Notes: generated from the letters alone by a model not told the origin. 47,517 bases of DNA from an uncultured Ruminococcus sp. (GCA_964507065.1 CAZDON010000001.1:1-47517), one strand, 5' to 3'. Positions 26,182 through 43,949 are shown, numbered from the stretch's first letter. Numbers and translations are program-made.

Positions 26182-26183
26182 TT

Positions 26184-26570: not shown

Positions 26571-26580
26571 TTTTTATACC

Positions 26581-28935: not shown

Positions 28936-28953
28936 AGTATTTACCTTCCTTGT

Positions 28954-32184: not shown

Positions 32185-32693
32185 ATATTATTCCTTCCCT
32201 TGCGGTCGCCGCCCGTTCCCGCGCGAATTTGCGCCTGCGCAAGACCGATATTATCGACGGTGCGATTAAGCTCCACCTGCTCAAGCTCAAAACCGTACTC
32301 AATAAGCTTGAAGGTAGTAGATAATGCCGCTCCAACGACAGCTCCTGCCAAACCTCCAACCGCCGCACCGACGATTAAGCTCTCCGCAATACTTACAACG
32401 TCATTCGTAACGCGCTGAGCCAACTGCAAACGCTGTTGATGCTCGCTGTTGCCCGTCCTGAGCGATACCGTGTTTATTCGGTTTGAAACGACGGTGTTCA
32501 CCGCGCGCTTTGCGTATCCATATGCGGCGGTCTGGAGTATGAGCTTTTTCTTAGGCGACTCTTTGTCCGTCAAGGCATCGCCGCTTGCCGTTGGCGCCGC
32601 TTCAGGCGCTTTCTGGTTTTCGGTGATATTGGTGCTGCCTTGCGCGGTATCGTCAGCTGTAATCTTAATTATGTATTCAATCTCTCTCGCCAT
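32181..32693 (-). CDS. small tail-module protein with a Gly-zipper hydrophobic segment (possible very short tape-measure or ejection protein)
   Basis: 170 aa. AAGGAG SD. Contains the segment SLIVGAAVGGLAGAVVGAALS. It occupies the position normally held by the tape-measure gene. Confidence 0.35.
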   Translation of the reverse strand: MAREIEYIIKITADDTAQGSTNITENQKAPEAAPTASGDALTDKESPKKKLILQTAAYGYAKRAVNTVVSNRINTVSLRTGNSEHQQRLQLAQRVTNDVVSIAESLIVGAAVGGLAGAVVGAALSTTFKLIEYGFELEQVELNRTVDNIGLAQAQIRAGTGGDRKGRNNI

Positions 32694-32709
32694 ATCGTGA
32701 TACTCCTTG

Positions 32710-33624
32710 TCATAACGTCAGCGCGGTGACGAGCGTCACGGAGCTTGATGCGATAGCGCCGACTGCGCCGTTTAAAGCGCCAGTATCAATGTACATAGTA
32801 TACTTGTGGGATTTGTTGTCGTTAAGCCTTGTAACCCTGATTGTTATGGGCGACAGCACACATTCAAAAAGATATGCGTCGATAGCCTCGTCAAAGTCAG
32901 ATATACGCTTATAAAGGTCGAAATTTATCGTTAATACCGTGGACGTTGGAGTATTTACGGCGTTAAGGCTGTTGTCGGTGTTAGTGTCAAACGTACACTT
33001 GCGAGCCATACCGTATTTCTGGTAAGGAATAAGATGCTCCCCGTCGTTATTAACGATGCGGAACTCGTATTCGCTTGACGCGACGCCCATTGTTACAAAC
33101 GAATGATTTATAAACACCGAAAGCGTAAAGGCATCGCCAGCCTCGTTCATTTGCGCCCTGCTGCCGCTATTCGCAAGCGCGTAATTTATGACGTAAAGAT
33201 ATGAAATTCCATCGGAATCATCTACGCTCTCGGTATTGGTATACTGAAGAGCGGCGGTAATTACCTGGCGCACAGCCGAAAGAATAGTATTACGGTCATT
33301 TTCGTCCGCACCCTCCGCAAAGGGTATAAGAAAATCCACCTTCGTTTGAACTACGGCGGTATAATTGTTCGCGCTCGTTCCCTCAACGTCGTTGCCTATG
33401 ACGCTCATTATACCGTTTATAAATCGCTTGACAGTGTTTCTGTCTCTTTCGGCGCGCTGATATACACCCGTATCTGTGAATATTTTGAACTCATATCTTT
33501 CGTTAGGGACTAAGGCCTCGGACGGGTTGGAGATTCCGTCAAGATTGTGACTTTTTATGTTTGCATAGTCTACTCCGTTCAAGCGGACCTCTAAAAGACG
33601 CGCAATTTCGTCGAATGTAATCAT
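32710..33624 (-). CDS. candidate major tail / tail tube-like structural protein
   Basis: 304 aa. First gene after the head-tail joining genes, with an ATGA overlap. Assigned by position only. Confidence 0.35.
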   Translation of the reverse strand: MITFDEIARLLEVRLNGVDYANIKSHNLDGISNPSEALVPNERYEFKIFTDTGVYQRAERDRNTVKRFINGIMSVIGNDVEGTSANNYTAVVQTKVDFLIPFAEGADENDRNTILSAVRQVITAALQYTNTESVDDSDGISYLYVINYALANSGSRAQMNEAGDAFTLSVFINHSFVTMGVASSEYEFRIVNNDGEHLIPYQKYGMARKCTFDTNTDNSLNAVNTPTSTVLTINFDLYKRISDFDEAIDAYLFECVLSPITIRVTRLNDNKSHKYTMYIDTGALNGAVGAIASSSVTLVTALTL

Positions 33625-33986
33625 TGTAAGTTTCCTTTCAGCCGTGCTGCAACTCGTTCGGCGATTTCACGAACTGCCCTGTCTATCCATCCCTCGTTTG
33701 GGTTATCTTTTGCGAGGTCAGGAGTATTGTACAGGCTTGACAGTCTTACACCGTTAAGCTGTGGGTATTTCGTTGAATTCACCCAGTAAGGTGAGGTTTC
33801 AGCCCAGTTAATATTCGTATATACGGAATACGGTGCTATTTCTACGCGTATTCGTATTTCGCCCTCGAATTGCTCTATTTTTAGCACAGAAGCGTTGTAT
33901 TTCATATTGCCGGTATCAACAGGGCAATGCTCTTTGAATATATCAAACGCCTCTCTGCAAATATCCTCAAATTCAATTTGTGTCAT
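33621..33986 (-). CDS. HK97 gp10-like head-tail/tail-completion protein
   Basis: 121 aa. Has a CPVDTGNMKYNA motif resembling the P-x-DTGNL signature of the HK97 gp10 family. Confidence 0.45.
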   Translation of the reverse strand: MTQIEFEDICREAFDIFKEHCPVDTGNMKYNASVLKIEQFEGEIRIRVEIAPYSVYTNINWAETSPYWVNSTKYPQLNGVRLSSLYNTPDLAKDNPNEGWIDRAVREIAERVAARLKGNLQ

Positions 33987-34386
33987 ATAATCCGCCTATC
34001 CCCCACGGGTCGTCGACCTTCTTCAAGAATAGAATCTGCGCAACACCAATGGGAATAATGCTCACCCTTGCCGCTTCTTTCGATACGCTCTTCATATCGT
34101 CAAGCGCGGCGGTGATAAGGTAAAGGCAGCCGTCCTGAAGTGCGACGTGCTTATCGGGCATAAAGCGAATAGGCGATTTTGTTTTGACGGCTATATCCGT
34201 ACCGTCAAGGCTTATAAGGTTTCCGACGATATTCTGATACCGTCGTTCCGCGGGATTAATTATTTCGTAATCATACACCATCGGAGCGGGAGTTGTTTTT
34301 CCCTGTGAATAGTTGGGAAGCTTTTCATAATAGCGTCCTGAATAAAGAGCGTCCGCGTTGCCCTCTGCAATGTCAAGAAAATCCAT
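33973..34386 (-). CDS. head-tail joining module protein (hypothetical)
   Basis: 137 aa, overlapping both neighbours by 14 nt. Position is between the capsid and tail genes. Confidence 0.4.
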   Translation of the reverse strand: MDFLDIAEGNADALYSGRYYEKLPNYSQGKTTPAPMVYDYEIINPAERRYQNIVGNLISLDGTDIAVKTKSPIRFMPDKHVALQDGCLYLITAALDDMKSVSKEAARVSIIPIGVAQILFLKKVDDPWGIGGLYDTN

Positions 34387-34834
34387 TTATATACCTCCCG
34401 GCGTACGTTATCGGGATTCCAAGCTCGGTAATCTCGCGGTTAAGCTCGTCCTTTGCCGACTCGTCCACTCCGAGCTTGCGCGTTTCGGGATTAAGTGAGC
34501 GGGTGAGGATACCGCGCTGTGCAATATACTCAGCCTGAAACAAAAGAGCGTTAAAAATTATCTCGCGCATCGACGGGATACGAGCTATGATGTTATCCTG
34601 TGCCGCATTGTTTGTGTTAAAGCTGTGAATATACCCGTAAATCATAACGGTTGCCTGATTCAGCACACGGTTTATTATTGCATTCGCATCTGCCGCGCGA
34701 TTTGCGGCAAGCTTCGCGCGGAGGTTAGTGCCGTTAGCTATAAGTGCGTCCTCTGTGATATAGTATCTTTTTGACCCCGCATCCCACCGCAAAAGCGTGT
34801 CGGAGTAAGGCTCGATAAGTCTGATGTCGTTCAT
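34373..34834 (-). CDS. head-tail connector/adaptor-like protein (hypothetical)
   Basis: I prefer the ATG at 34834 (MNDIRLIEPY..) because the longer ORF would run through the post-capsid hairpin and into the capsid gene. 153 aa. Confidence 0.4.
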   Translation of the reverse strand: MNDIRLIEPYSDTLLRWDAGSKRYYITEDALIANGTNLRAKLAANRAADANAIINRVLNQATVMIYGYIHSFNTNNAAQDNIIARIPSMREIIFNALLFQAEYIAQRGILTRSLNPETRKLGVDESAKDELNREITELGIPITYAGRYINGFS

Positions 34835-34853
34835 ATACACCTCGTAATAATAA

Positions 34854-34885
34854 GGACGAAGAGCGCCCGAAAGCCCTCTTCGTCC
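34854..34885 (-). terminator. stem-loop directly after the major capsid gene (partial terminator/attenuator)
   Basis: 10-bp stem GGACGAAGAG / CTCTTCGTCC. On the minus strand it is followed by TTATTATT. Confidence 0.45.
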
Positions 34886-34904
34886 CGTGATTAAAATATT
34901 CGCC

Positions 34905-35996
34905 TTATGCAGTAGGCTGCTGCGACTCAGGCGCAAGGATAGAAATAACCTGCGTAGTCTCAGTACCAGCTACGGGGTTAGTGAATCCGTTCTTAACGAT
35001 AAGTCTTACCGACTTACCAGAAATGCAAACGCATCCGCCGTGAACGAGAGGCTGAAGCACCCAGCCCTGGCCCTGCTGTGCGGGTACGACCTCAATTTCG
35101 GCCATAGAGGTAAAGCCGCGAAGAGTACCAACAGCTGAGCAAACAAGAGCGTCAACGTCGTTGAATGCGGTATCAGCAAGAGTAGCGCCGTTTATCTGGC
35201 AATAATGGGCCGCAAGCTTAAAGAGGATGGGCGATACAGTGTATACGGGAACACCGTCAATCTCGCCTGCGTAGCCGTTTCTCATCTCAACCTTTGAGCC
35301 CTCGTCGCTCTTGAAGGGGTTGAGTACACCGGTCGCAAGCATCTGCTGGCCGAGGTTGGAGTCGAGGATAACGGACTTGTCCTTCTTCATCTGACCGAGC
35401 GCTGCAGGACGGAAGAATGCCTGACGCATCTCGACGGGGAAGTAGTCCGCGCCGATAGCCTCGTCGCCCTCGCCCAGAAGCGCGTTAGCGTCGATGTAGT
35501 TATCGTACATAGTAGCGCCGCCACCCTCTTCTACGTAAAGAGGAGCGTCAGCTGCTGCTGAATCGTTGAGCGCGCGTGCAATCTGCACGGCAAATGTAAG
35601 GGCGTTGATACCTCTCGTAATCTTTCTGCGAATGTTTTCGGTCTTCGCATTGAGAAGGTCGTAGCCCGCCTTATCGTTCATGACCCTCGCAAGAGTCTCG
35701 GTGCGGTCGTAGACGTAAAGGAGCGGCACGTAAATGTAGTCGGAGGTTGAAATAACGGTGTCGTTACCGTTGAACTGGCCGCCGTTTACGGTAGCGCCAA
35801 GCTCACGGAAGTCGCCAGCGCCGAGAGCAACCTTAGGGATTGCAATGCTCTGCGCGCCGAGTCCAGAGCCGAGAATATAGCGCTCGTCAACGCCTTTGCC
35901 GTTTACGTGGAGAATGTCCTGAACGAACTTCTCAAAAACCATAGGTGACGCGATATTTTTAAGCGCCACGCTGTCAAGAATAGAATAACCTGCCAT
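34905..35996 (-). CDS. major capsid protein
   Basis: 363 aa. Lies directly after an acidic scaffold-like gene and is followed by a stem-loop. Size and composition fit a major capsid protein. The family could not be confirmed by eye. Confidence 0.7.
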   Translation of the reverse strand: MAGYSILDSVALKNIASPMVFEKFVQDILHVNGKGVDERYILGSGLGAQSIAIPKVALGAGDFRELGATVNGGQFNGNDTVISTSDYIYVPLLYVYDRTETLARVMNDKAGYDLLNAKTENIRRKITRGINALTFAVQIARALNDSAAADAPLYVEEGGGATMYDNYIDANALLGEGDEAIGADYFPVEMRQAFFRPAALGQMKKDKSVILDSNLGQQMLATGVLNPFKSDEGSKVEMRNGYAGEIDGVPVYTVSPILFKLAAHYCQINGATLADTAFNDVDALVCSAVGTLRGFTSMAEIEVVPAQQGQGWVLQPLVHGGCVCISGKSVRLIVKNGFTNPVAGTETTQVISILAPESQQPTA

Positions 35997-36017
35997 TGTT
36001 TGAATTTCCTTTCGTTA

Positions 36018-36533
36018 TTAAAAATTAAAGTATTTTGCGCGTGCTTTCTCAAGCTCGCTCTGTCCCTTGTCTGAGCCTGACTCGTTTCTTGACGAGATTC
36101 CGAACGACTTATCCTCGTCATCTTCATCCTCGCCATCCTTGTCATCGTCGGACTTGTTCTCTGCGTACGCATCGAATCTTGCCTGGAGTGCCTCGTGCTT
36201 TTTACGAAGCTCGGCAAGCTCGCCGCGGAGCGCATCGTATTTGTCGGAATCGGCTTCCTCGGCTTTTTCGTCGCCGTCCTCTGCCGCTTCCTCTTCGATT
36301 TCGTCAACGTCCTTGCCGATTTCCTCGGACTCCTCGTTGACTTCCTCTTTCTTCTCGTCCTTCTCGGACGAAGCGTCTGCCTTTTCTTCCTCGATTTTAT
36401 CAATCTCACGCTCGTCCTCGGCTTTGTCGAGGTCGGCAAGCTTGGCGCGAAGGCTCTTCTGCTCTTCGTCGGTAAGGCTGCCGATTGACTTCATAATCTC
36501 GTCAAGAGTAGGCTTTTTTGAAAAAAGTGCCAT
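36018..36533 (-). CDS. scaffolding protein (highly acidic coiled coil)
   Basis: ATG at 36533 (MALFSKKPTLDEI..) with an AAGGAA SD. The ORF track extends to 36647. E/D/K-rich helical sequence between the MuF and capsid genes. Confidence 0.65.
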   Translation of the reverse strand: MALFSKKPTLDEIMKSIGSLTDEEQKSLRAKLADLDKAEDEREIDKIEEEKADASSEKDEKKEEVNEESEEIGKDVDEIEEEAAEDGDEKAEEADSDKYDALRGELAELRKKHEALQARFDAYAENKSDDDKDGEDEDDEDKSFGISSRNESGSDKGQSELEKARAKYFNF

Positions 36534-36745
36534 TGATTTTGTTTTCCTTTCGTAATTTTGTTTTTTTGGGGGGTTGTATCGTACGATTTGTTTTTCCAAG
36601 CGTAACGAGTCGCTTTTTCTCGCGCTTTCCGCTTGTGCGATAGCCACGAAGTCGATACGTCTTACTTGTTACGCGTTAAGGTGCGTAAGTCCTATATATC
36701 CTGAGCCTCTTGTGAGGCGGTTTATATCTGATTTTGGGTATAAGA

Positions 36746-36773
36746 AAAGCACACTGCCGAAGCGGTGTGCTTT
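36746..36773 (-). terminator. intrinsic terminator closing cassette 2 (repeat copy 1)
   Basis: The minus strand reads AAAGCACACCGC-TTCG-GCAGTGTGCTTT followed by TCTTATACCCAAAAT. 12-bp stem with a UUCG loop. Confidence 0.7.
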
Positions 36774-36781
36774 GTAATTAT

Positions 36782-36964
36782 TCATTTTTCTAAAACATTG
36801 AATAAAGAAGGTGGATATAGAAAATCCTCTCCACTTTCGTCAATGATAGAATACCATTTTAACTTTTTGCTAACACTTATGACCTCATATACTTTCCCTT
36901 CGATGAGATCTACCGTGCTTAAATTCGTCTTTTTCCTTGCAACTTCATTGACTACGACCTTCAT
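36782..36964 (-). CDS. small ORF B2, immunity-like partner of A2 (60 aa)
   Basis: ATG at 36964 is 1 nt after the A2 stop, with a GGAGA SD 8 nt upstream. MKVVVNEVARKK...WYSIIDESGEDFLYPPSLFNVLEK. AT-rich. No family recognised. Confidence 0.6.
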   Translation of the reverse strand: MKVVVNEVARKKTNLSTVDLIEGKVYEVISVSKKLKWYSIIDESGEDFLYPPSLFNVLEK

Positions 36965-36965
36965 A

Positions 36966-37427
36966 CTATATCTCCGATTTGAATTTAAACTCAACTTTTC
37001 CGACGTGTGATTCTTCGTACCAATGGATTTCTGCTTTCAAATACTCGCCGTATTTCGTAACAATTTCCGCAACTGCTTTAACTTTCATCCATTCGCTTTC
37101 TATTGTACCGGGATAATCATGCAGCAAACGGTTAATATCATCAATTTTTCGGACGCATCCTTTACCTGCAAATATTTCTTTGTTTTGAAGTTTAGATCCT
37201 TCGACAAAACTGGCGATTCCACCGTCGGGCATTTTTATATCATGATTCGCCCATTTCGCACCGACAGAACGAGGAATATCCTCATCTGGAAGTTTTACCG
37301 TATCATTAAACGTATGGCTAATAGGCTCGCCGCTGCCGGGGAGTATCGAACCTATCTTTCCGCCCGCATTTCCGTCCGTAAACCTGCCTAAATCATCTCT
37401 CGGATGGTCTTTTTCATTCCATATCAT
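36966..37427 (-). CDS. HPR-GRFT leader protein A2, candidate capsid-delivered effector/toxin
   Basis: 153 aa. N-terminus MIWNEKDHPRDDLGRFT..GSILPGSGE is paralogous to that of ORF 42781..43269. C-terminal domain ..KGCVRKIDDINRLL..KAEIHWYEESHVGKVEFKFK. Lies immediately after the MuF-like gene. Confidence 0.6.
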   Translation of the reverse strand: MIWNEKDHPRDDLGRFTDGNAGGKIGSILPGSGEPISHTFNDTVKLPDEDIPRSVGAKWANHDIKMPDGGIASFVEGSKLQNKEIFAGKGCVRKIDDINRLLHDYPGTIESEWMKVKAVAEIVTKYGEYLKAEIHWYEESHVGKVEFKFKSEI

Positions 37428-37456
37428 AGTATATCATTATTCCTCTCGGTTGTCAA
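37428..37456 (-). promoter_or_regulatory. near-consensus sigma-A promoter abutting the A2 start codon
   Basis: The minus strand has TTGACA (37456-37451, containing the MuF TGA stop), a 17-nt spacer, and TATACT (37433-37428), directly followed by the ATG at 37427. Confidence 0.5.
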
Positions 37457-38682
37457 GTTTTATTGTCGAGCTTTCGCTTGTCCTGTCTGCGAAGCGAGAA
37501 AGTGCGCTCGTCATCAAGAATACGAGTGCGCTCTCGGTAGAACGCCGCGTTATTCTTTAAAGAGAAGCGCTCATACGCTGCGTTGAGCGTCCTGGCGCGT
37601 TTCCTTGCGCGTTTGGCAAGGGCGTTATTAATTCCGTCCGCCTGAACGGCAAGACGCTTCTGGTAGCGAATTTCACGCTCGTACGCGCGCTGCTTTTCCT
37701 CGACCTCGCGACGTTTTTGGATGACGGCGGTAGGAATCGGCTTCGGTCTCTCGCCCGGGCGGTATGCCTGTAACGTGTGCCGACAGTTAAATCCCGTAAT
37801 GCAACCGTTCTGATATACGCGGCCCTCGCGGGTGACGTACTCGTCCTCGGGGTTGTCCGTCGCATATTCAAGCGGACGGTAGAAGATGCCTTCCGCGGTC
37901 TTACCCGTCGAGCCGTCAAGTGAGTATAGTCCCGATGGATGCTTTGAGCCGCCGACCTGGTATTTTGCACACCGCTTTGAGCAATTCGCGTGCGGTATGA
38001 TGTAGACGAGCTTTACGCCACGCTCACGAAGTCCGTTTACCATATCGACCTGATGCTCGTAACGAACGGTCATTTCTGCGATATTTCTCAGATTAACGTT
38101 GACGCCGTATTCCTCGCGTGCATCACCGCCTACGATTTCGCCCAGGACTTCTTTCACGCTCTCGGTGTATCGTTTATGGTACAAGTCAAGCGGGAGCCCC
38201 TGGCGGTAGTTATCCGCGCGCGTTGCCCACGCCGCGCTGTCGAAAGGCGACGGTGACGATTTGAAGCTTTCAAGCATTAACTTGAAGCCCTGAGAGGTTA
38301 CAAGCTCGCGGCTGTAATCTTTGTCGAGAATTGCGCTCTTGTATAGCCTTGCCGTCGCAAGCTCGCTCTTGCCGTCAAGCGCCGACGTGACTGCCGAATA
38401 AAAAAGCGCACTCTCGTAAATAAGCCGCCTCTCGCGTGTGAGTGTATCAATGGAATATTTTCGCAACGGCAAAACGATACGCTCGCGAAGCGTAGCGCTT
38501 GATATGTCGCGCTGAGCGTCGGAAATAATCCTCGTTACCTCTTCCGCGTAGCGCTTCAATGGATAGTTATGCAATACGGCGCGCTTTGCCAGCTCGATAA
38601 TCCTTACCTCCGCATCCTCTACGACGAGAGGTGCTGCGGACTGAATCTCTGGAGCTTCATCACGCGTCTTGTTTATCGTCAT
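37453..38682 (-). CDS. MuF/SPP1 gp7-like minor head (head morphogenesis) protein
   Basis: 409 aa immediately after the portal gene (23-nt overlap). C-terminal Cys/His-rich region (HANCSKRC.., GFNCRHT) resembles the MuF-type H-x-NCRC motif. Basic helical tail. Confidence 0.55.
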   Translation of the reverse strand: MTINKTRDEAPEIQSAAPLVVEDAEVRIIELAKRAVLHNYPLKRYAEEVTRIISDAQRDISSATLRERIVLPLRKYSIDTLTRERRLIYESALFYSAVTSALDGKSELATARLYKSAILDKDYSRELVTSQGFKLMLESFKSSPSPFDSAAWATRADNYRQGLPLDLYHKRYTESVKEVLGEIVGGDAREEYGVNVNLRNIAEMTVRYEHQVDMVNGLRERGVKLVYIIPHANCSKRCAKYQVGGSKHPSGLYSLDGSTGKTAEGIFYRPLEYATDNPEDEYVTREGRVYQNGCITGFNCRHTLQAYRPGERPKPIPTAVIQKRREVEEKQRAYEREIRYQKRLAVQADGINNALAKRARKRARTLNAAYERFSLKNNAAFYRERTRILDDERTFSLRRQDKRKLDNKT

Positions 38683-40324
38683 ATGACTTTATCTCCGTAT
38701 CTGCATCCATTGAGTCGAATATTGACATTTGAGACTTTTGCTTTTCCGCTTGTTCACTGCGTATCTTCTTAATCTCTGCCGTAATCATAGCCTCGTTCCA
38801 GTCGGGATGGACGGTACGCACAAATTCTTCGAGCGAGGAGCCGCCTGCCGTATAGATTCTTAGAGCATTCTCGACGAGGAGCGTGTAATTCGTCTGGCCA
38901 GCTTTCGAAAACGACGCCTGAATCTTACCGTCCCAGCCGTAATACAGACGCACGTCCTCAACAATTCGGTTGATGGTATAGAGCAGACCGACGCGCTTGT
39001 TTTCCACGAGAAGCGTCGTCGAGCTTTCCTCAGCGGATATCTCACGTGCCGTACGGTTGGACGTGTCGTTGAGGTATGAGGCAAACGACGAGGGCGCTAT
39101 GCCTATTGCCGTCGCAATGTTCTCAAGGAGCATATTGCGGACAGCCTTCATCTGCTCGGCACGTAGCTCAGGCTGAATGAACGTCAGCGGTCGGCTCTCT
39201 TGGCCCATTTCCTCATAGTAGGTCATAAGAAAGTTGTCAAGTCCGCTGTTGTAGTTAGCCTTCTGCGGATTCTGATACGCCTTTTTTGCAAGCACGCGGG
39301 CGCGAGATACGTACATTTCGGTGTCTATAATGGACGACAGTATGTCGTAGTCGCAAAGATATTTGATAATACCCTCAAGCACCGAGTCACCGTATGCAAG
39401 CTGCGGCATTGACGTGAGGCGCGGAGTGTTCTTGTATAGGTAAACGCCTATATGAGAAAACGGGATTCTGATAGGCTTGTCCAGCCGTATATCGCTGTAT
39501 GCTTCCTTCAGCTGCTTTCTCGCCCACGCGGGAATCTCTTCCCACGCAAGGTAGGTACTTGGCATCTGACTCTGATTGCACTGCGTGGAAATCCTGTACA
39601 CCTTGTAAATGCAATAAGGAACGCCGTCAATGTACGTGCGCTCCTCAAACAGTCCAAGCGTTTCGCTGTCAGGCTTGGTTGGGTGTGCAAAGGTCTGTAT
39701 GTAAAACTGCGCGGTTATCGGGTTGCCCTTTGCGTCAAGCGTGTATTTGGTGCGTGAGAGGGGTGCTGCCTCCACCCATATCTTCCGACACGAGTCGATA
39801 TTGAGCTTAAACGCCGCCGTTCCGAGCCCCGTTGCGTACCGTATTACCGTCTGCACGACCGACGAGAAGCTCGTTTCAGCCGCCCATTCGTCGAGGTTGT
39901 CAAGCGTCTCGTTGCGACCGTTGTCGTTTTTCTCGTTATCGGTTGCCGCGTAGTTTATACCGCCGCCAAAGATTAACGCCGTGACCTTGTCAACGATAGC
40001 TTTTGCGAGATGCGTCGGGATTACGCCCTTAGAGAGGTCGTGAAAGTCGGGAACGAGTCCGTTTATCCAGTATTCCCAGTTCATAACCTTGCGATAGAAC
40101 GGCTTAAGGTTGGGGGATATTGAATTATAGAAGGTGGTATTGTTTACCCAGGAATAATACTCCTGTATCGCCATACCGATATACTCGCTTGTCGGCGCGA
40201 AATTGATAGCGCCCTTTCCACCAAGTCCGGGAATAAGAGCGCCGATTCCGTTATTCATATTTGCGGACTGTCCGCCCGTTGCGTTCGCCGCCGCGGCGCT
40301 CTTGGCGCTCTTCGTAGTAGTCAT
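38660..40324 (-). CDS. portal protein
   Basis: 554 aa. Position is between terL (plus one small ORF) and the MuF-like gene. Size is typical. The family was not confirmed by eye. Confidence 0.65.
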   Translation of the reverse strand: MTTTKSAKSAAAANATGGQSANMNNGIGALIPGLGGKGAINFAPTSEYIGMAIQEYYSWVNNTTFYNSISPNLKPFYRKVMNWEYWINGLVPDFHDLSKGVIPTHLAKAIVDKVTALIFGGGINYAATDNEKNDNGRNETLDNLDEWAAETSFSSVVQTVIRYATGLGTAAFKLNIDSCRKIWVEAAPLSRTKYTLDAKGNPITAQFYIQTFAHPTKPDSETLGLFEERTYIDGVPYCIYKVYRISTQCNQSQMPSTYLAWEEIPAWARKQLKEAYSDIRLDKPIRIPFSHIGVYLYKNTPRLTSMPQLAYGDSVLEGIIKYLCDYDILSSIIDTEMYVSRARVLAKKAYQNPQKANYNSGLDNFLMTYYEEMGQESRPLTFIQPELRAEQMKAVRNMLLENIATAIGIAPSSFASYLNDTSNRTAREISAEESSTTLLVENKRVGLLYTINRIVEDVRLYYGWDGKIQASFSKAGQTNYTLLVENALRIYTAGGSSLEEFVRTVHPDWNEAMITAEIKKIRSEQAEKQKSQMSIFDSMDADTEIKSYDDKQDA

Positions 40325-40327
40325 ATC

Positions 40328-40729
40328 TTACGTTACTCCGTCTTTTTTATCTCTTTTGAAGTCGTTAGCGTGACGCTCAATATATGCGTCAATATCAAGC
40401 TCATGCACAACGCGAAAAAGGTCCTCGATACGCTCAAGCGAGCTTTTAAGCCCCTCAAGGTAGCAGAGTGTCGTTCCCGCGATATTTGCGCTTATGCGAA
40501 GATTCGTCATCCATTCGGGGACGTAGCTCGTCGGTATCTCCCTGCGAGCAATTTCCTCCGCCTCTTCACGCGTCATCTCGACGCCGTTGTCTTTTGCGCG
40601 GGCAAGCAGCTTCGTCGCGTAGTCGTTAATTATGATGTTGTACGAAGGCTCGCGAATTGCCGCGTATTCCTCAAACGTCAGAAGCGTGTTGTTGTTAATC
40701 GTTTCGTTAAGCTCTTTCAAATTCTTCAT
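40328..40729 (-). CDS. hypothetical phage protein between terL and portal
   Basis: 133-aa helical, acidic ORF that overlaps the terL end by 23 nt. Confidence 0.55.
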   Translation of the reverse strand: MKNLKELNETINNNTLLTFEEYAAIREPSYNIIINDYATKLLARAKDNGVEMTREEAEEIARREIPTSYVPEWMTNLRISANIAGTTLCYLEGLKSSLERIEDLFRVVHELDIDAYIERHANDFKRDKKDGVT

Positions 40730-42089
40730 AATAGTCAGCCCTTTCAGGTAAGTTTAGATTTTCAGGATTTTCAAAGTACGCGCAAGCACCGTACACGAAT
40801 GAGTCCGAGCAGTCGTTCGGTATCGCGGGGTCAAGGCGTGAGTTCTTCCAGGCTACGTTCTCAAGCTGCTCGACAAGAAGCGGCACGTCCGTATCTACCC
40901 AGCGGCTCGACGCATAATCGTAATATCCGCCGTAGTCCACTATATACGCCATATTGCGCGCAAACACGTTGTTTGCGGTGGAGGTGTTGCGGATGACGTT
41001 CTTCCTCGTGAACGGAATAACGTTGTAATAGCCGTCAAGCTCGTACTGCAACTGCGTGATAAGGTCCTCGGATGCACAGTCGACGAAGAAGTACACGGGA
41101 ATGTAATTTGATTGCAGACCGTACTTTCGTTCCATATCCCGCATATAAAGCGCGATAAGCTCGGCAAGCTGCGACGGTGCCAACGGTCTACCGTACGTCA
41201 GCGGATTAAATATAAACGGCTCAAGCACCGCCATTCGTCCGCTCGTCATAATCGCCTGGAAGTTGAGGCACGTCATATCGTGCGTTATAGCACCGTCACC
41301 TCCAATAAATACGGTGTGAATGCGTTCGCCCGCAAAAACCCGTGATGCTTCGTCGGGCGTTATTACGTGACGCTCGCGGCTGAACGAGGGATACGCGCCG
41401 CCGTTGATGTCCGAGAGGTCACCGAGATACATAAATTTGTAGAGTGCAGGGGATATTATTTTTTCAAGCTCGATATTCTTACGGTCCGCCTCGTTCAGAA
41501 GCTCGTAAATATCCAGATAGTTTGAAGATATGTGCGTATAATCGTCAAGTCCCTTGTGCTTTGCCGCGTAGACGTTCCACCAGTGGCCCTTGATTTCGTG
41601 CGGGTTGCCGCACAGCATAAGTCGGTAGTCAATGCTCGTGTCAATGTATCGGCGGAAGGATGCCAGGGCGTGCTTCAGGTTTTCCTCGTCGCTTATCTGC
41701 TGGCACTCGTCGCCGATGATGAACGCAAGAGGATTTTTCGGGTGGAATCCGCGGACGCGAGATTTGTCGTGTCCGCTTACGCCCAGGAAATATATATTGC
41801 TTTTGCCGCCGTCAAGCTCAAGGCGTAGCGGCTGCTGCCTTATCTTCACCCTCGCGCCGTAGCCGAGGTTTACGAATTTCTCAAGCGTGTCGTTGACGAC
41901 CGAAGAGAGGAGCGAGTTCGCGTTCGCGCGGAATACGATACCGTCGTGATTCGGGTACGTTATCTTTGAGTACGCGCCGTATTGCGACACCTCGTACGAC
42001 TTGCCCGAAATACGTGGGCAGTTAAGTATTATATTGTGGTCGCCCGTCTGGTACATCGGACGATACGGCTCCGATACGTACATCCTCAT
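40707..42089 (-). CDS. terL: terminase large subunit
   Basis: 460 aa. ATGA overlap with terS. N-terminal P-loop-like NCPRISGKSY, followed by acidic Walker-B-like and C-terminal nuclease-like regions. Synteny is terS-terL-portal. Confidence 0.8.
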   Translation of the reverse strand: MRMYVSEPYRPMYQTGDHNIILNCPRISGKSYEVSQYGAYSKITYPNHDGIVFRANANSLLSSVVNDTLEKFVNLGYGARVKIRQQPLRLELDGGKSNIYFLGVSGHDKSRVRGFHPKNPLAFIIGDECQQISDEENLKHALASFRRYIDTSIDYRLMLCGNPHEIKGHWWNVYAAKHKGLDDYTHISSNYLDIYELLNEADRKNIELEKIISPALYKFMYLGDLSDINGGAYPSFSRERHVITPDEASRVFAGERIHTVFIGGDGAITHDMTCLNFQAIMTSGRMAVLEPFIFNPLTYGRPLAPSQLAELIALYMRDMERKYGLQSNYIPVYFFVDCASEDLITQLQYELDGYYNVIPFTRKNVIRNTSTANNVFARNMAYIVDYGGYYDYASSRWVDTDVPLLVEQLENVAWKNSRLDPAIPNDCSDSFVYGACAYFENPENLNLPERADYYEEFERA

Positions 42090-42472
42090 TTATCGCCGTC
42101 ACCGTCCTTTTTGGAATTATCCACGAATACGATTTCAAGCTTGCCGTCCTGTTCGGCGGCCGCTCCTTCCTGCGACTCACCGAGGATGAGAGAGAGCTGC
42201 GTGAGGTCGTTGAGCGATACGTCCTTGAGCTTGTTTACAAGAGCGAGGATGGTCATAAGCTCCTTGACCTTGACGTTATCCCCGAGCCCCAGCTCCTTTG
42301 CGTACGCCTGAACGACGGCACGGTTTTTGACGGGCTCGTTAAGCAGCGCGCCGACAAGCTCTCGGAAGGTCCTTTGCGCTCTCCGCGCCTTGCCGCTTGC
42401 GATTCCGCCCGCGCGACCTTTTTCTCGTGCTTCACTCGCGGTTGGTCTTTTTAAGTTTTTCTCATTTGCCAT
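42086..42472 (-). CDS. terS: terminase small subunit
   Basis: 128 aa. Basic N-terminal DNA-binding-like segment (EKGRAGGIASGKARRAQR). Located immediately upstream of and overlapping terL. Confidence 0.6.
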   Translation of the reverse strand: MANEKNLKRPTASEAREKGRAGGIASGKARRAQRTFRELVGALLNEPVKNRAVVQAYAKELGLGDNVKVKELMTILALVNKLKDVSLNDLTQLSLILGESQEGAAAEQDGKLEIVFVDNSKKDGDGDK

Positions 42473-42494
42473 TCATCTCACTTCGCTTTATGTA

Positions 42495-42524
42495 ATGAAA
42501 AAGCACCTTGCCGAAGCAAAGTGC
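42495..42524 (-). terminator. intrinsic terminator just upstream of terS
   Basis: The minus strand reads GCACTTTGC-TTCG-GCAAGGTGC followed by TTTTTCATT. 9-bp stem with one mismatch and a UUCG loop. Confidence 0.6.
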
Positions 42525-42544
42525 CGTGTTTTAAGTTTTGGGTA

Positions 42545-42577
42545 TATGAAAAGCACACCGCGGGGAACGGTGTGCTT
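42545..42577 (-). terminator. intrinsic terminator closing cassette 1 (repeat copy 2)
   Basis: The minus strand reads AAGCACACCG-TTCCCCG-CGGTGTGCTT followed by TTCATATACCCAAAAC. The flank matches the 36731-36754 copy at 22 of 24 positions. Confidence 0.65.
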
Positions 42578-42581
42578 GGGG

Positions 42582-42791
42582 TTATTGTTTTTTTATCGGG
42601 TCGCCAAATATAGTCAAGCCCTTTGCGTAATTCTTCCTGGCTTCTCTTATGGTTGTGTAGTTGATTCGTACACGCTCATTTTCGTCGATTTCATGTTCGT
42701 TTCCGACTGGAATCCATTGACATGTGGGGCACGGGTCTTCAAACATCCCCCCCATAAATACCGTTCCACAAATAGCGCATTTATACTCCAT
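42582..42791 (-). CDS. small ORF B1, CPCC-like cysteine-rich zinc-ribbon protein (69 aa), partner of A1
   Basis: ATG at 42791 overlaps the A1 end by 11 nt. MEYKCAICG..CPTCQW.. then ..TIREARKNYAKG resembles the Cys-rich CPCC family pattern. This is from memory and not verified. Confidence 0.55.
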   Translation of the reverse strand: MEYKCAICGTVFMGGMFEDPCPTCQWIPVGNEHEIDENERVRINYTTIREARKNYAKGLTIFGDPIKKQ

Positions 42792-43269
42792 ACAATTTAT
42801 CCCTGTATACCTTTCTCTCAAAATCTTTTTGAGACATAAAATAGTAAGTTTTCACCGTACCATCGGTGCCAACGCTCATAAATTCGTCGGTTAAATGATT
42901 GTATTTATAAAAATTATTGGTTGCTTTAGAATAGTACACATTTCCTTCGCCACTGTTCCAAAAGTCAATGGCAGCCTTTTCATATTCCTTGGAATCCTTA
43001 AATCCCATTTCGGAAACATGCCTTTGATGATGAGCAGTATACAGCCTGTGATTTTCAAAACCGTACGCCTCTTGGGGCAGAAGAGGGATTTCAGTTTTTT
43101 GTCGGTTGTCAGATTCTTTTTTAGGTTGATTTTTACCAAAGTAATCAAGTTCCAGCTTAAATCTTTCGTCAACCTCACCCTTGCCGGGAACGATACTTCC
43201 GACACCGTCGCGGCTTGTAAATCTGCCGATTTTATTACGAGGATGCTCTTCCTCTTTCCACTGCTTCAT
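42781..43269 (-). CDS. HPR-GRFT leader protein A1, candidate effector/toxin (possible BECR-like nuclease fold)
   Basis: I prefer the ATG at 43269 (MKQWKEEEHPRNKIGRFT..GSIVPGKGE, AAAGGA SD), by analogy with A2. The ORF-track extension to 43362 runs through a terminator-like hairpin. His-rich C-terminal domain (NHRLYTAHHQRHVSEMGF...TVKTYYF). Confidence 0.6.
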   Translation of the reverse strand: MKQWKEEEHPRNKIGRFTSRDGVGSIVPGKGEVDERFKLELDYFGKNQPKKESDNRQKTEIPLLPQEAYGFENHRLYTAHHQRHVSEMGFKDSKEYEKAAIDFWNSGEGNVYYSKATNNFYKYNHLTDEFMSVGTDGTVKTYYFMSQKDFERKVYRDKLYGV

Positions 43270-43296
43270 TATACCACATCCTTTGGAATTTGTCAA
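43268..43296 (-). promoter_or_regulatory. perfect consensus sigma-A promoter overlapping the A1 start codon
   Basis: The minus strand has TTGACA (43296-43291), a 17-nt spacer ending in TGG, and TATAAT (43273-43268). The last AT of the -10 plus the next G form the ATG at 43269. Confidence 0.55.
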
Positions 43297-43300
43297 TGCT

Positions 43301-43336
43301 CGTGAAAACAGGGCGCACGTTTCACCGTACACCCTG
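43301..43336 (-). terminator. terminator-like hairpin 5 nt upstream of the cassette 1 promoter
   Basis: The minus strand reads CAGGGTGTACG-GTGAAA-CGTGCGCCCTG followed by TTTTCACG. 11-bp stem including two G-U pairs. Confidence 0.5.
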
Positions 43337-43493
43337 TCTGCCGTCCTCAGCCCCGTCACCACACGGGGAGCGCGATACGGCTGCCACGTGGTCGCGCTTG
43401 CTTCTTAGAAAGGAGGTGCAAATGTAATATGACATCTGCAAGAAAGCCGCCTGAAAAAGCGCCATCATATCCTGAGCACGATATGATATTGTA

Positions 43494-43524
43494 ATTATAC
43501 CACAGGTGTGGGGGTGAAAATCAA
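43494..43524 (-). promoter_or_regulatory. extended -10 promoter downstream of the late-regulator gene
   Basis: The minus strand has TGGTATAAT (43502-43494). The only -35-like hexamer is TTGATT at a 19-nt spacing. Confidence 0.4.
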
Positions 43525-43556
43525 GTGACAAAAGGGTGACATCAGGGGACAATTTT

Positions 43557-43949
43557 TCAAAATTTCGAGAATTTTTCGCGGAGCGCGCTCAATGTACGCT
43601 TGACCGTCCGCTCACACATATGCAGCTCCGTCGCAATCTTCCTCACGCTCCAGCCGCGCCTGTACTTCAGTATAAGCACGTCGTACTCGTTCTCGTCAAG
43701 CGTCTTTCCGAATCGTTCAAGTGTACAATACGCGTCGTGGACTGCTCGTCTTGCGTCCTCTCGTGCGCTAAGCAGCTCCTCGTGCTTCTGACAAATGGGC
43801 GCGAGCTTGTCGTGACTCGCGGGCGTTGCGTTGAAGCCCTCGCCCGACGGCGCGGGCGGGGCGTAGATAACAGACTCGTATTCCGTGAGATTATCTCTTG
43901 CGCGGTTTAACGATTTTACAGCGTTTATGTATATTTTTAAGCTATCCAT
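43557..43949 (-). CDS. phage late-gene transcriptional regulator, sigma-70 region-4 / RinA-ArpU-like HTH
   Basis: 130 aa. C-terminal HTH ILKYRRGWSVRKIATELHMCERTVKRTLSALREKF. Lies just upstream of the packaging module, as late activators do in Bacillota phages. Confidence 0.5.
   Translation of the reverse strand: MDSLKIYINAVKSLNRARDNLTEYESVIYAPPAPSGEGFNATPASHDKLAPICQKHEELLSAREDARRAVHDAYCTLERFGKTLDENEYDVLILKYRRGWSVRKIATELHMCERTVKRTLSALREKFSKF

What the first reader, a model, noticed from the sequence alone, without database searches (positions are those of the whole stretch)
36746..43336. Shared HPR-GRFT leader plus divergent C-termini, different partners and a repeated terminator: a polymorphic two-locus system
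A1 and A2 align over their first ~35 residues (MKQWKEEEHPRNKIGRFTSRDG--VGSIVPGKGE versus M-IWNEKDHPRDDLGRFTDGNAGGKIGSILPGSGE). After that they are unrelated, and each is followed by a different small ORF. The DNA after each cassette is also paralogous. ATTTTGGGTATAAGAAAAGCACAC (36731-36754) and GTTTTGGGTATATGAAAAGCACAC (42535-42558) are 22/24 identical, and each leads into a GTGTGCTT-type hairpin. A conserved N-terminal module, variable C-terminal domains and cassette-specific downstream genes together are the hallmark of polymorphic toxin systems. I recall HPRxxG(K/R)F-type motifs near the C-terminal ends of MuF-like and polyvalent phage proteins, but I cannot verify this without a search. 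The leader could be a capsid-targeting, MuF-docking or prohead-protease cleavage signal that loads interchangeable effectors into the head for co-injection. Two separately encoded, leader-tagged cargo genes in one phage would be an undescribed arrangement as far as I know.
Basis: partly seen in the sequence, partly recalled or inferred. Interest (0 to 1): 0.8.

Follow-up and report, generated by a model that had tools for sequence, protein, structure and literature searches.

The report
Leader-tagged prophage toxin–immunity cassettes
A prophage carries two small toxin–antidote gene cassettes whose toxins begin with the same short peptide tag, a tag that turns out to precede injected "weapon" domains in thousands of phage proteins and may be the address label that loads them into the virus head.

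Summary
A1 (43269-42781, minus strand) and A2 (37427-36966) share a 32-34-residue N-terminal leader, M-x-W-x-E-x-x-HPR-x-x-x-GRF, plus a Gly/Ser linker, and are otherwise unrelated. Each has its own small downstream partner gene and a paralogous terminator.

A1's C-terminus models as a colicin D / CdiA-CT-like RNase fold. A2's C-terminal domain occurs elsewhere as the C-terminal end of MuF and portal proteins and is almost always followed by the same small partner. These are therefore stand-alone versions of the known MuF/portal polymorphic toxins, sitting in the late operon of a Clostridia-type prophage.

The leader is widespread. At least 2289 protein clusters carry it, often several times per giant "polyvalent" protein, always ahead of a module. 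I found it described in no paper searched. A role in capsid loading is plausible but untested.

It overlaps the toxin's ribosome-binding site and start codon here, and lies inside the MuF/portal-toxin reading frame in fused relatives. It should therefore give antidote-only transcripts, ended by the cassette terminator.

Verdict: new variant of a known kind; moderately high interest.

The parts
43557..43949 (-). Late regulator gene (130 aa), immediately upstream of the A1 cassette; context
   Evidence: NCBIfam sigma-70 region-4-like hits. PHROG phrog_79 'anti-termination protein Q-like', E=1.5e-7, and sigma/activator families.
43297..43556 (-). Structured intergenic region upstream of A1, ending in a terminator-like hairpin (43337-43308 followed by TTTTC)
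   Evidence: The RNA fold of 43255-43500 has z=-3.5. The last ~70 nt (43366-43297) are conserved as DNA in both L001 copies, and most of the 43400-43297 stretch in the first L001 copy. It gives a weak, sub-threshold Hammerhead_II hit.
43268..43296 (-). Sigma-70 consensus promoter TTGACA-17-TATAAT (12/12, with TG); its -10 overlaps the A1 ATG and the Shine-Dalgarno lies in the spacer
   Evidence: Best site in 34.5-45 kb. TTGACA is invariant in four homologous copies.
42781..43269 (-). A1 toxin gene (162 aa): leader aa 1-32 (43269-43174), then a low-confidence spacer (no confident structure; largely conserved in P0002), then a colicin D-like BECR domain from about aa 62
   Evidence: AF2 gives domain pLDDT of about 80-89. 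Foldseek's top six hits are CdiA-CT 8ey4_A and colicin D. H80H81xxH84xxE87 has the spacing of colicin D K607K608xxH611xxD614. PHROG hit to the C-terminal end of a 'portal protein' family.
42582..42791 (-). A1 partner: 69-aa CPCC zinc-ribbon protein (candidate immunity), overlapping the A1 stop by 11 nt
   Evidence: PF14206, E=2.3e-5, and phrog_6332. The same pairing follows P0002 in L001/L002.
42536..42577 (-). Intrinsic terminator 1 of the A1 cassette: hairpin AAGCACACCG..CGGTGTGCTT plus conserved tail TTTTCATATACCCAAAA
   Evidence: (D12).
42495..42525 (-). Second terminator-like hairpin, just before terS
   Evidence: conserved in L001 and L206.
37453..42472 (-). Head-packaging block between the cassettes: terS 42472-42086, terL 42089-40707, 133-aa ORF 40729-40328, portal 40324-38660, short MuF (Phage_min_cap2) 38682-37453
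   Evidence: Pfam and PHROG hits.
37428..37456 (-). Sigma-70-like promoter TTGACA-17-TATACT (11/12, with TG). The -35 overlaps the MuF stop codon, the Shine-Dalgarno lies in the spacer, and the -10 abuts the A2 ATG
36966..37427 (-). A2 toxin gene (153 aa): leader aa 1-34 (37427-37326), then an uncharacterised alpha+beta domain (aa ~40-153) that elsewhere is C-terminal on MuF and portal proteins
   Evidence: 43 homologues and their alignment. AF2 pLDDT 84.7. BFVD hit 'Minor capsid protein', E=7e-11. Fusions to PF04233, PF06152, PF04860 and PF06381.
36782..36964 (-). A2 partner: 60-aa protein (candidate immunity)
   Evidence: phrog_34144. A homologue lies directly downstream of the A2-type domain in 76 of 80 viral loci. 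It reads as one ORF with the toxin in P0043.
36732..36773 (-). Intrinsic terminator of the A2 cassette: hairpin AAAGCACACCGC..GCAGTGTGCTTT plus tail TTTTCTTATACCCAAAA
   Evidence: A terminator with the tail TTTT.TATAC follows the partner gene in at least 18 of 24 representatives.

Best explanation
The region holds two paralogous, moron-like toxin-immunity cassettes inserted in the late (virion) operon of a Clostridia-type prophage.

**What each cassette contains**
- A sigma-70 promoter.
- A leader of 32-34 aa (W-x-E-x-x-HPR-x-x-x-G-R-F plus a Gly/Ser linker).
- A toxin domain.
- A small cognate partner gene.
- An intrinsic terminator.

**Shown**
- The cassette anatomy.
- The modularity of the leader.
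- Toxin-type homology or fold: A1 looks like a colicin D/CdiA-CT RNase, and the A2 domain is a passenger of MuF and portal proteins.
- The conserved toxin-partner pairing.
- Conserved promoter and terminator boundaries.

**Inferred, step 1: loading**
Late in the lytic cycle, read-through transcripts driven by the adjacent Q-like/sigma-like regulator let the toxins be translated from their own start codons. The leader is the same module-leading motif that links portal proteins and giant polyvalent proteins to their effector domains. It would replace covalent fusion by docking the free toxin to the portal/MuF complex or the procapsid interior. The toxin would then be packaged and injected with the DNA.

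**Inferred, step 2: protection**
In the lysogen, host RNA polymerase starts at the cassette promoter. Its -10 element sits on the start codon and the Shine-Dalgarno lies in its spacer. The transcript therefore begins inside codons 2-4 and lacks the toxin's translation start. Only the downstream immunity gene is translated. The cassette terminator stops this transcript before the next late gene.

**Outcome**
Lysogens would be immune to the toxins their own phage particles deliver, as in other polymorphic toxin systems.
For: **Leader shared and module-leading**
- BLASTP E=6e-9 between the two leaders; the motif occurs only twice in the window.
- The profile search finds 2289 clusters at E<=1e-3.
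- A logo from 465 instances gives [WF][DN]E..HPR[DA]..G[KR]F followed by a Gly-rich linker. Median spacing between copies is 262 aa. A copy lies within the first 30 aa in 26 of 150 proteins, and within the last 60 aa in only 2 of 150.

**Virion association of the motif and the domains**
- Architecture Phage_portal_3, then motif, then a variable effector.
- Stand-alone proteins with an N-terminal motif carry PBECR3 or ART domains.
- Three of ten immediately upstream neighbours of such stand-alone genes are portals.
- The A2 domain occurs on MuF1, MuF2 and portal proteins.
- MuF-fused representatives lack the motif. Stand-alone and most portal-fused representatives have it or a degenerate form.
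- A1 matches the C-terminal end of a portal PHROG.

**Toxin identity and immunity**
- Foldseek hits to CdiA-CT and colicin D, with the catalytic-motif spacing.
- Partner adjacent in 76 of 80 loci.
- Orphan CPCC genes in L203 and L204.

**Polymorphism**
The same promoter and leader DNA is joined to three different C-termini.

**Nested promoter**
- The two best sigma-70 sites in 10.5 kb are these two.
- Nine of twelve leader-bearing stand-alone copies checked have the ATG 0-4 nt after the -10 or overlapping it: window A1 and A2, two in L001, L003, L203, L204, L206 and probably L009.
- In 14 of 18 clusters of the A2 family a TTGACA-16/17-TGnTATAAT site lies at or just upstream of the toxin domain start. 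In the fused clusters it is inside the MuF/portal reading frame. Across lineages the hexamers are kept while the encoded residues vary. Background is 0.07-0.17 sites per kb.

**Terminators and regulator**
- Terminators follow the partner gene in at least 18 of 24 representatives.
- The late regulator is upstream.
- The window is a prophage beside the host gene mnmA.
Against: - There are no virion data, so packaging of A1 or A2 is not shown.
- A2-type cassettes occupy varied late-operon sites and are not tied to MuF.
- The motif also sits between domains of giant proteins that are already one polypeptide, which fits a processing site at least as well as a docking tag.
- The A1 model rests on two sequences, with mean pLDDT 62. 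The best Foldseek E-value is only 4e-3.
- The A2 domain has no solved structural relative, so its activity is unknown.
- The partners are called immunity proteins by position only.
- One stand-alone cluster (L004, L005, L006, L031) has the promoter 29 nt upstream of the ATG, so there the toxin could be translated from it.
- The promoter-motif association is not general: 3 of 136 motifs in the broad, mostly high-GC sample.
- No transcription start site was measured.
Confidence: 0.55

Rival explanations
1. The leader is a proteolytic processing or demarcation site. In portal fusions and polyvalent proteins it marks where modules are cut apart, by a phage or host protease, or after injection. Stand-alone genes keep it only because they arose by splitting at that junction. 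It would then have no docking role.
For: - 2-17 copies per protein, spaced about one per domain (median 262 aa), each followed by a flexible Gly/Ser linker.
- A portal-fused effector must be released to be injected (architecture).
- Some motif-bearing proteins contain an XkdF-type prohead protease domain.
- Iyer et al. propose processing of polyvalent proteins (PMC5512222).
Against: - Stand-alone genes keep the motif under clear constraint. W/F sits at residue 3-4 and E, H, P, R, G, F are invariant in 17 leaders drawn from two toxin families (A1/P0002 and 15 A2-type). A vestige would decay.
- No protease gene was recognised in this phage's head module: the Pfam scans covered terS through scaffold and the PHROG scans terS through the putative capsid gene.
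- MuF-fused A2-type toxins need no such site.
Confidence: 0.25
2. The shared 5' module (promoter plus leader) and 3' module (terminator plus tail) are mainly recombination handles. They let cassettes be swapped between phages, like the conserved pre-toxin junctions of CDI and Rhs systems. The peptide they encode would be incidental.
For: - DNA-level homology of both flanks, with an abrupt switch of the interior.
- A hybrid in L001: an A1-type leader on an A2-type domain.
- A third C-terminus in L206.
- Cassette arrays separated by duplicated terS 5' fragments.
Against: - The motif is conserved as protein across high-GC and low-GC phages whose DNA is unrelated.
- Window A1 and A2 leaders are only about 65% identical as DNA, yet keep every invariant residue.
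- This reading is compatible with, not exclusive of, a peptide function.
Confidence: 0.1
3. The cassettes are ordinary prophage morons: toxin-antitoxin, abortive-infection or lysogenic-conversion modules. They would act inside the lysogen or after lysis, and would never be packaged.
For: - The layout of own promoter, own terminator and two small overlapping genes is the classic moron layout.
- An A1-like cassette persists in a non-phage chromosomal context in L001 and L002.
- One cluster has a normally placed promoter.
Against: - No match to any PADLOC defence model.
- The toxin comes first and the antidote second, as in polymorphic toxins.
- The toxin domains are the same ones carried on portal and MuF virion proteins.
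- The cassettes are always in the late structural operon.
- The L001 copy is a phage remnant with a terS fragment and a pseudogene.
Confidence: 0.1

Closest known systems
MuF polymorphic toxins of temperate phages (Jamet et al. 2017, PMC5576092; Apk2 and Bxa, PMC11699363)
   Same: - Prophage head-morphogenesis context.
- Variable C-terminal toxin domain followed by a small immunity ORF.
- Firmicutes-type hosts.
- The A2 domain is literally found at the C-terminus of MuF1 and MuF2 proteins.
   Different: - A1 and A2 have no MuF domain. MuF is a separate 'short' gene.
- A 32-34-aa leader replaces the carrier.
- A1 lies upstream of terS, not after the portal.
- Promoter and terminator boundaries are not mentioned in that paper.
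Polyvalent proteins and portal/MuF-PBECR fusions (Iyer et al. 2017, PMC5512222)
   Same: - The same motif occurs between modules of these proteins and ahead of their PBECR, ART and LPD domains.
- The paper notes 'solo versions' of PBECR domains in phages.
   Different: - A1 and A2 are single-domain proteins.
- I found no description of the W-x-E-x-x-HPR-D-x-x-G-[KR]-F motif in the text.
- No Pfam model covers it.
Phage T4 capsid targeting sequence of internal proteins IPI-III (PMC9026906)
   Same: It is a short N-terminal peptide shared by otherwise unrelated, injected proteins. It is sufficient to load foreign cargo into the head. This is the functional analogy proposed for the leader.
   Different: - There is no sequence similarity.
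- The T4 sequence is about 10 aa, acts through the scaffolding core, and is removed by the gp21 prohead protease.
- This phage has an SPP1-like head module with no recognised protease.
- Function is untested here.
CDI/Rhs polymorphic toxins with conserved pre-toxin junctions and orphan cassettes (Zhang et al. 2012, PMC3482391); colicin D
   Same: - A conserved junction demarcates swappable toxin-immunity modules.
- Orphan immunity genes occur.
- The A1 fold and the HHxxHxxE motif resemble colicin D and CdiA-CT tRNases.
   Different: - The junction here is an N-terminal start of an independent gene.
- Delivery is presumably by phage capsid rather than by a secretion system.
- The partner is a CPCC zinc ribbon, not ImmD.
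Colicin operons with a separate constitutive immunity promoter; phage morons (own knowledge, not checked in a paper here)
   Same: - Immunity is expressed independently of the toxin.
- A promoter-gene-terminator unit is nested in a late operon.
   Different: - The promoter is superimposed on the toxin's own ribosome-binding site and start codon. In fused relatives it is embedded in the carrier-toxin reading frame at the module boundary.

Membership tests
MuF polymorphic toxins (Jamet 2017) | An N-terminal MuF domain (PF04233, PF06152, MuF3/4) in the same polypeptide as the toxin | tested here: not met
   A1 and A2 have no Pfam hit. MuF (PF06152) is the separate gene 38682-37453.
MuF polymorphic toxins (Jamet 2017) | Encoded in a temperate phage or prophage head module next to portal and MuF | tested here: met
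   The window is a prophage beside the host gene mnmA. A2 lies directly after MuF. A1 lies before terS.
MuF polymorphic toxins (Jamet 2017) | Variable C-terminal toxin domain followed by a small (<150 aa) immunity ORF | tested here: met
   Partners of 69 and 60 aa. Partner conserved in 76 of 80 loci. The A2 domain is found on MuF proteins. Toxicity itself was not tested.
Polyvalent proteins (Iyer 2017) | 2-15 effector domains in one polypeptide | tested here: not met
   A1 and A2 each have one domain. They share only the inter-module motif.
Tox-ColicinD / BECR-fold RNases | BECR alpha+beta fold | tested here: inconclusive
   The top six Foldseek PDB hits are CdiA-CT 8ey4_A (prob 1.00, target-normalised TM-score 0.67, E=4e-3) and colicin D. 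The model comes from a two-sequence alignment, with domain pLDDT of about 80-89. No sequence hit in the PDB.
Tox-ColicinD / BECR-fold RNases | Catalytic signature [KH]K, Hxx[ED] (colicin D K607, K608, H611, D614) | tested here: inconclusive
   A1 has H80 H81 x x H84 x x E87 with the same spacing. It is conserved in P0002 and the L009 homologue. The second position is H, not K. No structural superposition of the residues was possible.
Tox-ColicinD / BECR-fold RNases | ImmD or Imm64 immunity partner | tested here: not met
   The partner is a Cys_rich_CPCC zinc ribbon.
T4-type capsid targeting sequence | N-terminal peptide sufficient for head incorporation and removed by a prohead protease | not testable with these tools
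   This needs virion proteomics or reporter fusions. No protease gene was recognised in the head module.
Phage moron | Own promoter and own terminator flanking a non-essential gene inside a late operon | tested here: met
   Sites scoring 12/12 and 11/12 against the sigma-70 consensus, plus intrinsic terminators, at both cassettes. This is at sequence level only; no transcript data.
Anti-phage defence / toxin-antitoxin systems (PADLOC) | Match to a known defence-system protein model | tested here: not met
   No PADLOC hit for A1, A2 or either partner.

The most novel reading that the evidence does not exclude
The W-x-E-x-x-HPR-D-x-x-G-[KR]-F peptide is a general, portable capsid-loading tag of tailed phages. 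It would dock free or linker-tethered effector modules to the portal/MuF complex so that they are injected with the DNA. That would explain its presence ahead of effector domains in more than 2000 protein clusters, and at the N-terminus of stand-alone toxins such as A1 and A2. Coupled to it, in the low-GC cassettes examined (the A2-type family and the A1/L206-type leader cassettes), the cassettes carry a promoter nested in the toxin's translation start (or reading frame), so that lysogens make antidote without toxin.
Probability: 0.3. Interest if true: 0.85.

Novelty: new variant of a known kind. Interest (0 to 1): 0.62.

Why it matters
**An open question.** How MuF/portal-associated toxins reach the capsid, and what they do, is still open. 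[quoted passage not shown]

**A minimal test case.** Stand-alone toxins have exchanged the whole carrier domain for a peptide of about 20 residues. This gives a portable test: fuse the tag to a reporter and ask whether it is packaged and injected. If it works, the tag would be a tool for loading cargo into siphophage capsids.

**The nested promoter.** It suggests how a prophage keeps its host immune without ever making toxin. It also shows that selection on DNA signals shapes the junction residues of these toxins.

**Annotation.** The motif could help delimit effector modules in giant phage proteins.

Tried and rejected
**Searches that found nothing or little**
- Megablast and tblastn of the region, A1 and A2 against 50,697 GenBank phages: no match.
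- tblastn with a 25-aa consensus leader: 14 records at E=2-7, above the significance level. Five of them (all at E=4-5) overlap genes annotated as portal or HI1409-family.
- The word-index protein search found only one A1 homologue. With the leader profile it returned only 30-74-aa fragments, one carrying Ntox50, so it could not give architectures.
- Pfam, NCBIfam and PADLOC gave nothing for A1 or A2.
- The A2 model has no significant PDB fold match.
- PDB sequence search with A1: nothing.
- Literature searches for the motif spelled several ways, and for capsid-targeting tags: no relevant paper.

**Ideas considered and rejected**
- Start of A1 at the GTG at 43362. The upstream region is conserved as DNA, not as protein.
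- 'A2 is a piece split off the adjacent MuF', as a general rule. Cassette positions vary.
- Leaderless mRNA from the nested promoters. The -10 abuts or overlaps the ATG, so a start 5-9 nt downstream misses it, and there is no in-frame start nearby.
- A functional hammerhead ribozyme upstream of A1. The score is 22.7 bits against a threshold of 37, a core G is missing, and CUGANGA is mutated to CCGAGGA in L001.
- A general link between promoter and motif in all phages: 3 of 136.

Full report
**1. What is in the sequence**

All genes of interest are on the minus strand. In transcription order:

| Coordinates | Feature |
|---|---|
| 43949-43557 | 130-aa Q-like / sigma-70 region-4-like regulator |
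| 43556-43270 | 290-nt structured intergenic region |
| 43269-42781 | A1 |
| 42791-42582 | 69-aa CPCC zinc-ribbon gene, overlapping A1's stop |
| 42577-42536 and 42525-42495 | two hairpin terminators |
| 42472-42086 | terS |
| 42089-40707 | terL |
| 40729-40328 | 133-aa ORF |
| 40324-38660 | portal |
| 38682-37453 | short MuF (Phage_min_cap2) |
| 37427-36966 | A2 |
| 36964-36782 | 60-aa gene |
| 36773-36732 | terminator |
| 36647-36018 | putative scaffold |
| 35996-34905 | putative capsid gene |

Host genes (mnmA, a cysteine desulfurase, a ROK kinase) fill 19-23 kb, so this is a prophage. It has no close relative among GenBank phages.

**2.

- The two proteins align only at the N-terminus: 16/32 identical, E=6e-9.
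- The motif occurs nowhere else in the six-frame translation.
- The 3' DNA repeat is 24/26 identical and adjoins a GCACAC/GTGTGC hairpin in both places.
- The homology also covers about 110 nt at the 5' end, from TTGACA through the leader codons.

**3. What the two proteins are**

*A2*
- It has 43 homologues, all 112-200 aa. They share a conserved domain of about 110 aa, a variable linker and, in most, the N-terminal W-x-E-x-x-HPR-D-x-x-G-K-F motif.
- Its AlphaFold model is confident (pLDDT 84.7). It has no solved structural relative. It matches a viral 'minor capsid protein' of 451 aa at E=7e-11.
- In 80 IMG/VR loci the domain is usually the C-terminal end of a long protein. These carriers are Phage_Mu_F, Phage_min_cap2, Phage_portal or Phage_portal_3 proteins.
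- In 76 of 80 loci a homologue of the 60-aa partner lies immediately downstream.
- A2 is therefore a stand-alone copy of a toxin-type passenger domain of MuF and portal proteins, together with its cognate partner.

*A1*
- It is rare, with one homologue in the large protein database.
- It matches the C-terminal end of a portal PHROG family.
- Its model has two helices, four strands and a helix, with domain pLDDT of about 80-89.
- The top six PDB matches are a CdiA-CT toxin (8ey4_A, prob 1.00, E=4e-3) and colicin D tRNase structures.
- H80-H81-x-x-H84-x-x-E87 reproduces the spacing of the colicin D catalytic residues listed by Zhang et al.. It is conserved in both homologues.
- The partner pairing A1-type plus CPCC recurs in L001 and L002.
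- I call A1 a probable BECR-fold RNase toxin, with moderate confidence.

**4. The leader is a widespread, module-leading motif**

- A 29-position profile of 17 leaders, run exhaustively against 1.84 billion representatives, found 2289 proteins at E<=1e-3 and 212 at E<=1e-10.
- The best 150 are 293-7334 aa long, with 2-17 copies each.
- Sampled members carry Zeta_toxin, GNAT, Portal_Mu, ART-PolyVal and XkdF-type protease domains, the repertoire of polyvalent proteins.
- From 465 instances the logo is [A/E/D]-[W/F]-[D/N]-E-[S/E]-x-H-P-R-[D/A]-x-[D]-G-[K/R]-F-[T/A/G], followed by a Gly-rich stretch. Copies are a median 262 aa apart. 26 of 150 proteins have a copy in the first 30 residues, but only 2 have one in the last 60. 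The motif therefore leads modules rather than trailing them.
It yielded 126 motif ORFs.
  - In the nine sampled ORFs (647-774 aa) that have a Phage_portal_3 domain, the motif lies 50-120 residues after the domain's end. It is followed by LPD13/PBECR2, LPD3, PBECR3, PBECR1, ADP-ribosyltransferase or an unknown domain.
  - In 19 ORFs the motif is at the predicted N-terminus of a stand-alone protein, with PBECR3, ART or an unknown domain.
  - Three of the ten sampled genes immediately upstream of such stand-alone genes encode portals.
- In the A2 family the sampled MuF-fused forms have no motif. Portal-fused and stand-alone forms mostly carry it or a degenerate version (QPREPNGRF, RGDHGRF, QPRDSHGRY, KPQEYNKENGRY) plus a Gly/Ser linker.
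- I found no description of the motif in Jamet 2017, Iyer 2017, Zhang 2012 or full-text searches. Absence from the library is not proof that it is undescribed.

**5. Polymorphism is real**

- In the Logan contigs L001 and L002, a phage remnant in a chromosomal context, an A1-like cassette is followed by a terS 5' fragment. Next comes a second copy of the same upstream region, promoter and A1-type leader, now carrying a TAG stop. That leader is joined to a decayed A2-type domain, its partner and the same terminator.
- In a Clostridia MAG (L206) the same promoter and leader are joined to a third, unrelated helical C-terminus with a different 117-aa partner.
- Homologous A2-type cassettes sit after MuF (the window), after the capsid gene (L203), in the tail module (L204), or upstream of terS (L003, L031, L009).
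- CPCC genes also occur without an A1-type toxin, as expected for orphan immunity genes.

**6. A nested promoter, not part of the original finding**

- The two best sigma-70 matches in 34.5-45 kb are TTGACA-17-TATAAT (12/12, with TG) at A1 and TTGACA-17-TATACT (11/12, with TG) at A2.
- In both, the Shine-Dalgarno lies inside the promoter spacer and the -10 hexamer abuts or overlaps the ATG.
- The same geometry, with the ATG 0-4 nt after the -10, recurs in both L001 copies, L003, L203, L204 and L206. These copies have diverged substantially in DNA.
- In 14 of 18 clusters (70% identity) of the A2 family, a TTGACA-16/17-TGnTATAAT site lies at or just upstream of the toxin domain start. The search window was -330 to +40 nt of that start. 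In the ten fused clusters among them the site lies inside the MuF/portal-toxin reading frame. In seven clusters the -10 ends exactly 10 nt past the domain start. The background rate is 0.07-0.17 sites per kb.
- The encoded residues differ between lineages (VDK, LDK, LDN, LEK, LNN and DII, GII, GIM, GTM) while the hexamers and the TG are kept. That points to selection on the DNA signal.
- At least 18 of 24 representatives have an intrinsic terminator right after the partner gene, with a recurring tail TTTT.TATAC.
- By textbook geometry, transcription starts 5-9 nt downstream of the -10. Such transcripts lack the toxin's ribosome-binding site and AUG but contain the partner gene with its own Shine-Dalgarno. 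I infer antidote-only mRNAs in the lysogen.
- Toxin translation would then require late read-through from upstream. This fits the Q-like/sigma-like regulator and the terminator-like hairpin just upstream of the A1 promoter.
- Exception: the cluster L004, L005, L006, L031 has the promoter 29 nt upstream of the ATG.
- The promoter-motif association is not seen in the broad, mostly high-GC motif sample (3 of 136).
- No transcript data exist; this step is inference.

**7. Mechanism and its rivals**

*Shown:* cassette anatomy, modular leader, toxin-type domains, conserved partner pairing, and conserved promoter and terminator boundaries.

*Inferred:* the leader replaces covalent fusion to the portal or MuF as the means of capsid incorporation.

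Points in favour of the inference:
- The motif associates with portal fusions and polyvalent proteins.
- It leads modules and is followed by a flexible linker.
- Its distribution is complementary to that of MuF fusions.
- It is under tight constraint at the extreme N-terminus of stand-alone proteins.
- The cassettes lie in the late operon.
- The T4 capsid targeting sequence is a precedent.

Points against:
- The multi-copy arrangement in single polypeptides fits a cleavage site equally well.
- There are no virion data.
- Cassette position is not tied to MuF.

The recombination-handle and plain-moron readings are compatible with parts of the data. They do not explain protein-level conservation across unrelated DNA, or the identity of the domains with portal/MuF passengers. 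No PADLOC defence model matches.

**8. Verdict**

- The interpretation as a polymorphic toxin system is supported.
- The capsid-loading role of the leader remains a good but untested hypothesis.
- The system is a variant of the known MuF/portal polymorphic toxins, in stand-alone, leader-tagged, self-transcribed form. Two features appear undescribed: the motif as a general module leader, and the promoter nested in the toxin's translation start or reading frame.

Noticed in passing
window 43297-43556 (minus strand); L001 4590-4700: The region between the late regulator and A1 folds better than shuffles (z=-3.5). Its last ~70 nt (window 43366-43297), including the terminator-like hairpin just upstream of the promoter, are conserved as DNA in both L001 copies; the two upstream hairpins (43396-43345) are conserved, with compensatory changes, only in the first copy (GCGCGA/UCGCGC against GCGUGA/UCACGC; CCCCG/CGGGG against CUCG/CGAG). 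It gives a sub-threshold Hammerhead_II hit (22.7 bits against a threshold of 37). The catalytic core is imperfect, and CUGANGA is CCGAGGA in L001. It could be a late-transcription or antitermination leader RNA.
   Followed up: partly
L001 4700-6200; L002; L206 1-600: These are phage-remnant arrays in bacterial chromosomes. Successive toxin-immunity cassettes are separated by a duplicated terS 5' fragment (GTGGCAAATGAGAAAAACTTAAAG...). One cassette is a pseudogene, with TAG in the leader and a deletion in the A2-type domain. This suggests cassettes are acquired by recombination through the terS start and the shared upstream region.
   Followed up: partly
IMG/VR loci L007, L017, L024, L036, L055 and others, at the toxin-domain start: The junction residues of MuF/portal-toxin fusions (..VDKSEK-x-DIIKL..) are encoded by a consensus extended -10 promoter. 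Protein alignments of this junction partly reflect a DNA signal.
   Followed up: yes
protein P0166 (535 aa): This is an HMG-box-like protein (its N-terminus resembles an HMG box by eye; no family scan was run on it). It has four tandem F-x-E-x-EHPRD-x-x-G-x-F repeats in a Lys/Arg/Ser-rich context. It looks eukaryotic or giant-virus-like rather than phage-like, and hints that the motif may have a use outside capsids, for example nucleic-acid or protein binding.
   Followed up: no
L009 3671-5153: An A2-type toxin (degenerate leader KPQEYNKENGRY), its partner, and then a 201-aa protein with an A1-like colicin D-type domain lie side by side upstream of terS. Both toxins share a second short element, (R)MTAHEGR(E)P, as if another junction had been duplicated.
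   Followed up: no
L203 1-356; L204 7680-7955; L205 986-1261: CPCC zinc-ribbon genes occur in tandem or after an A2-type cassette, without an A1-type toxin. They are likely orphan immunity genes.
   Followed up: no
window 40328-40729 (minus strand): A 133-aa ORF lies between terL and the portal and overlaps terL's end. It has no Pfam, PHROG, NCBIfam or PADLOC hit. L203 has a 95-aa ORF at the same position.
   Followed up: no
window 24095-36647 (minus strand): The putative scaffold had no PHROG match and only sub-threshold Pfam matches. The putative capsid, head-tail and tail genes (including the 1076-aa presumed tape measure) have no PHROG match at E<=1e-3 and were not scanned against Pfam. 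Only the 784-aa tail protein hits. This phage lineage is poorly represented in reference collections.
   Followed up: partly
window 42495-42525 and 36745-36775: The second hairpin before terS (GGCACTTTGCTTCGGCAAGGTGCT) is itself 77% identical to the A2 cassette terminator. The A1 cassette is therefore followed by two related terminators in tandem.
   Followed up: no
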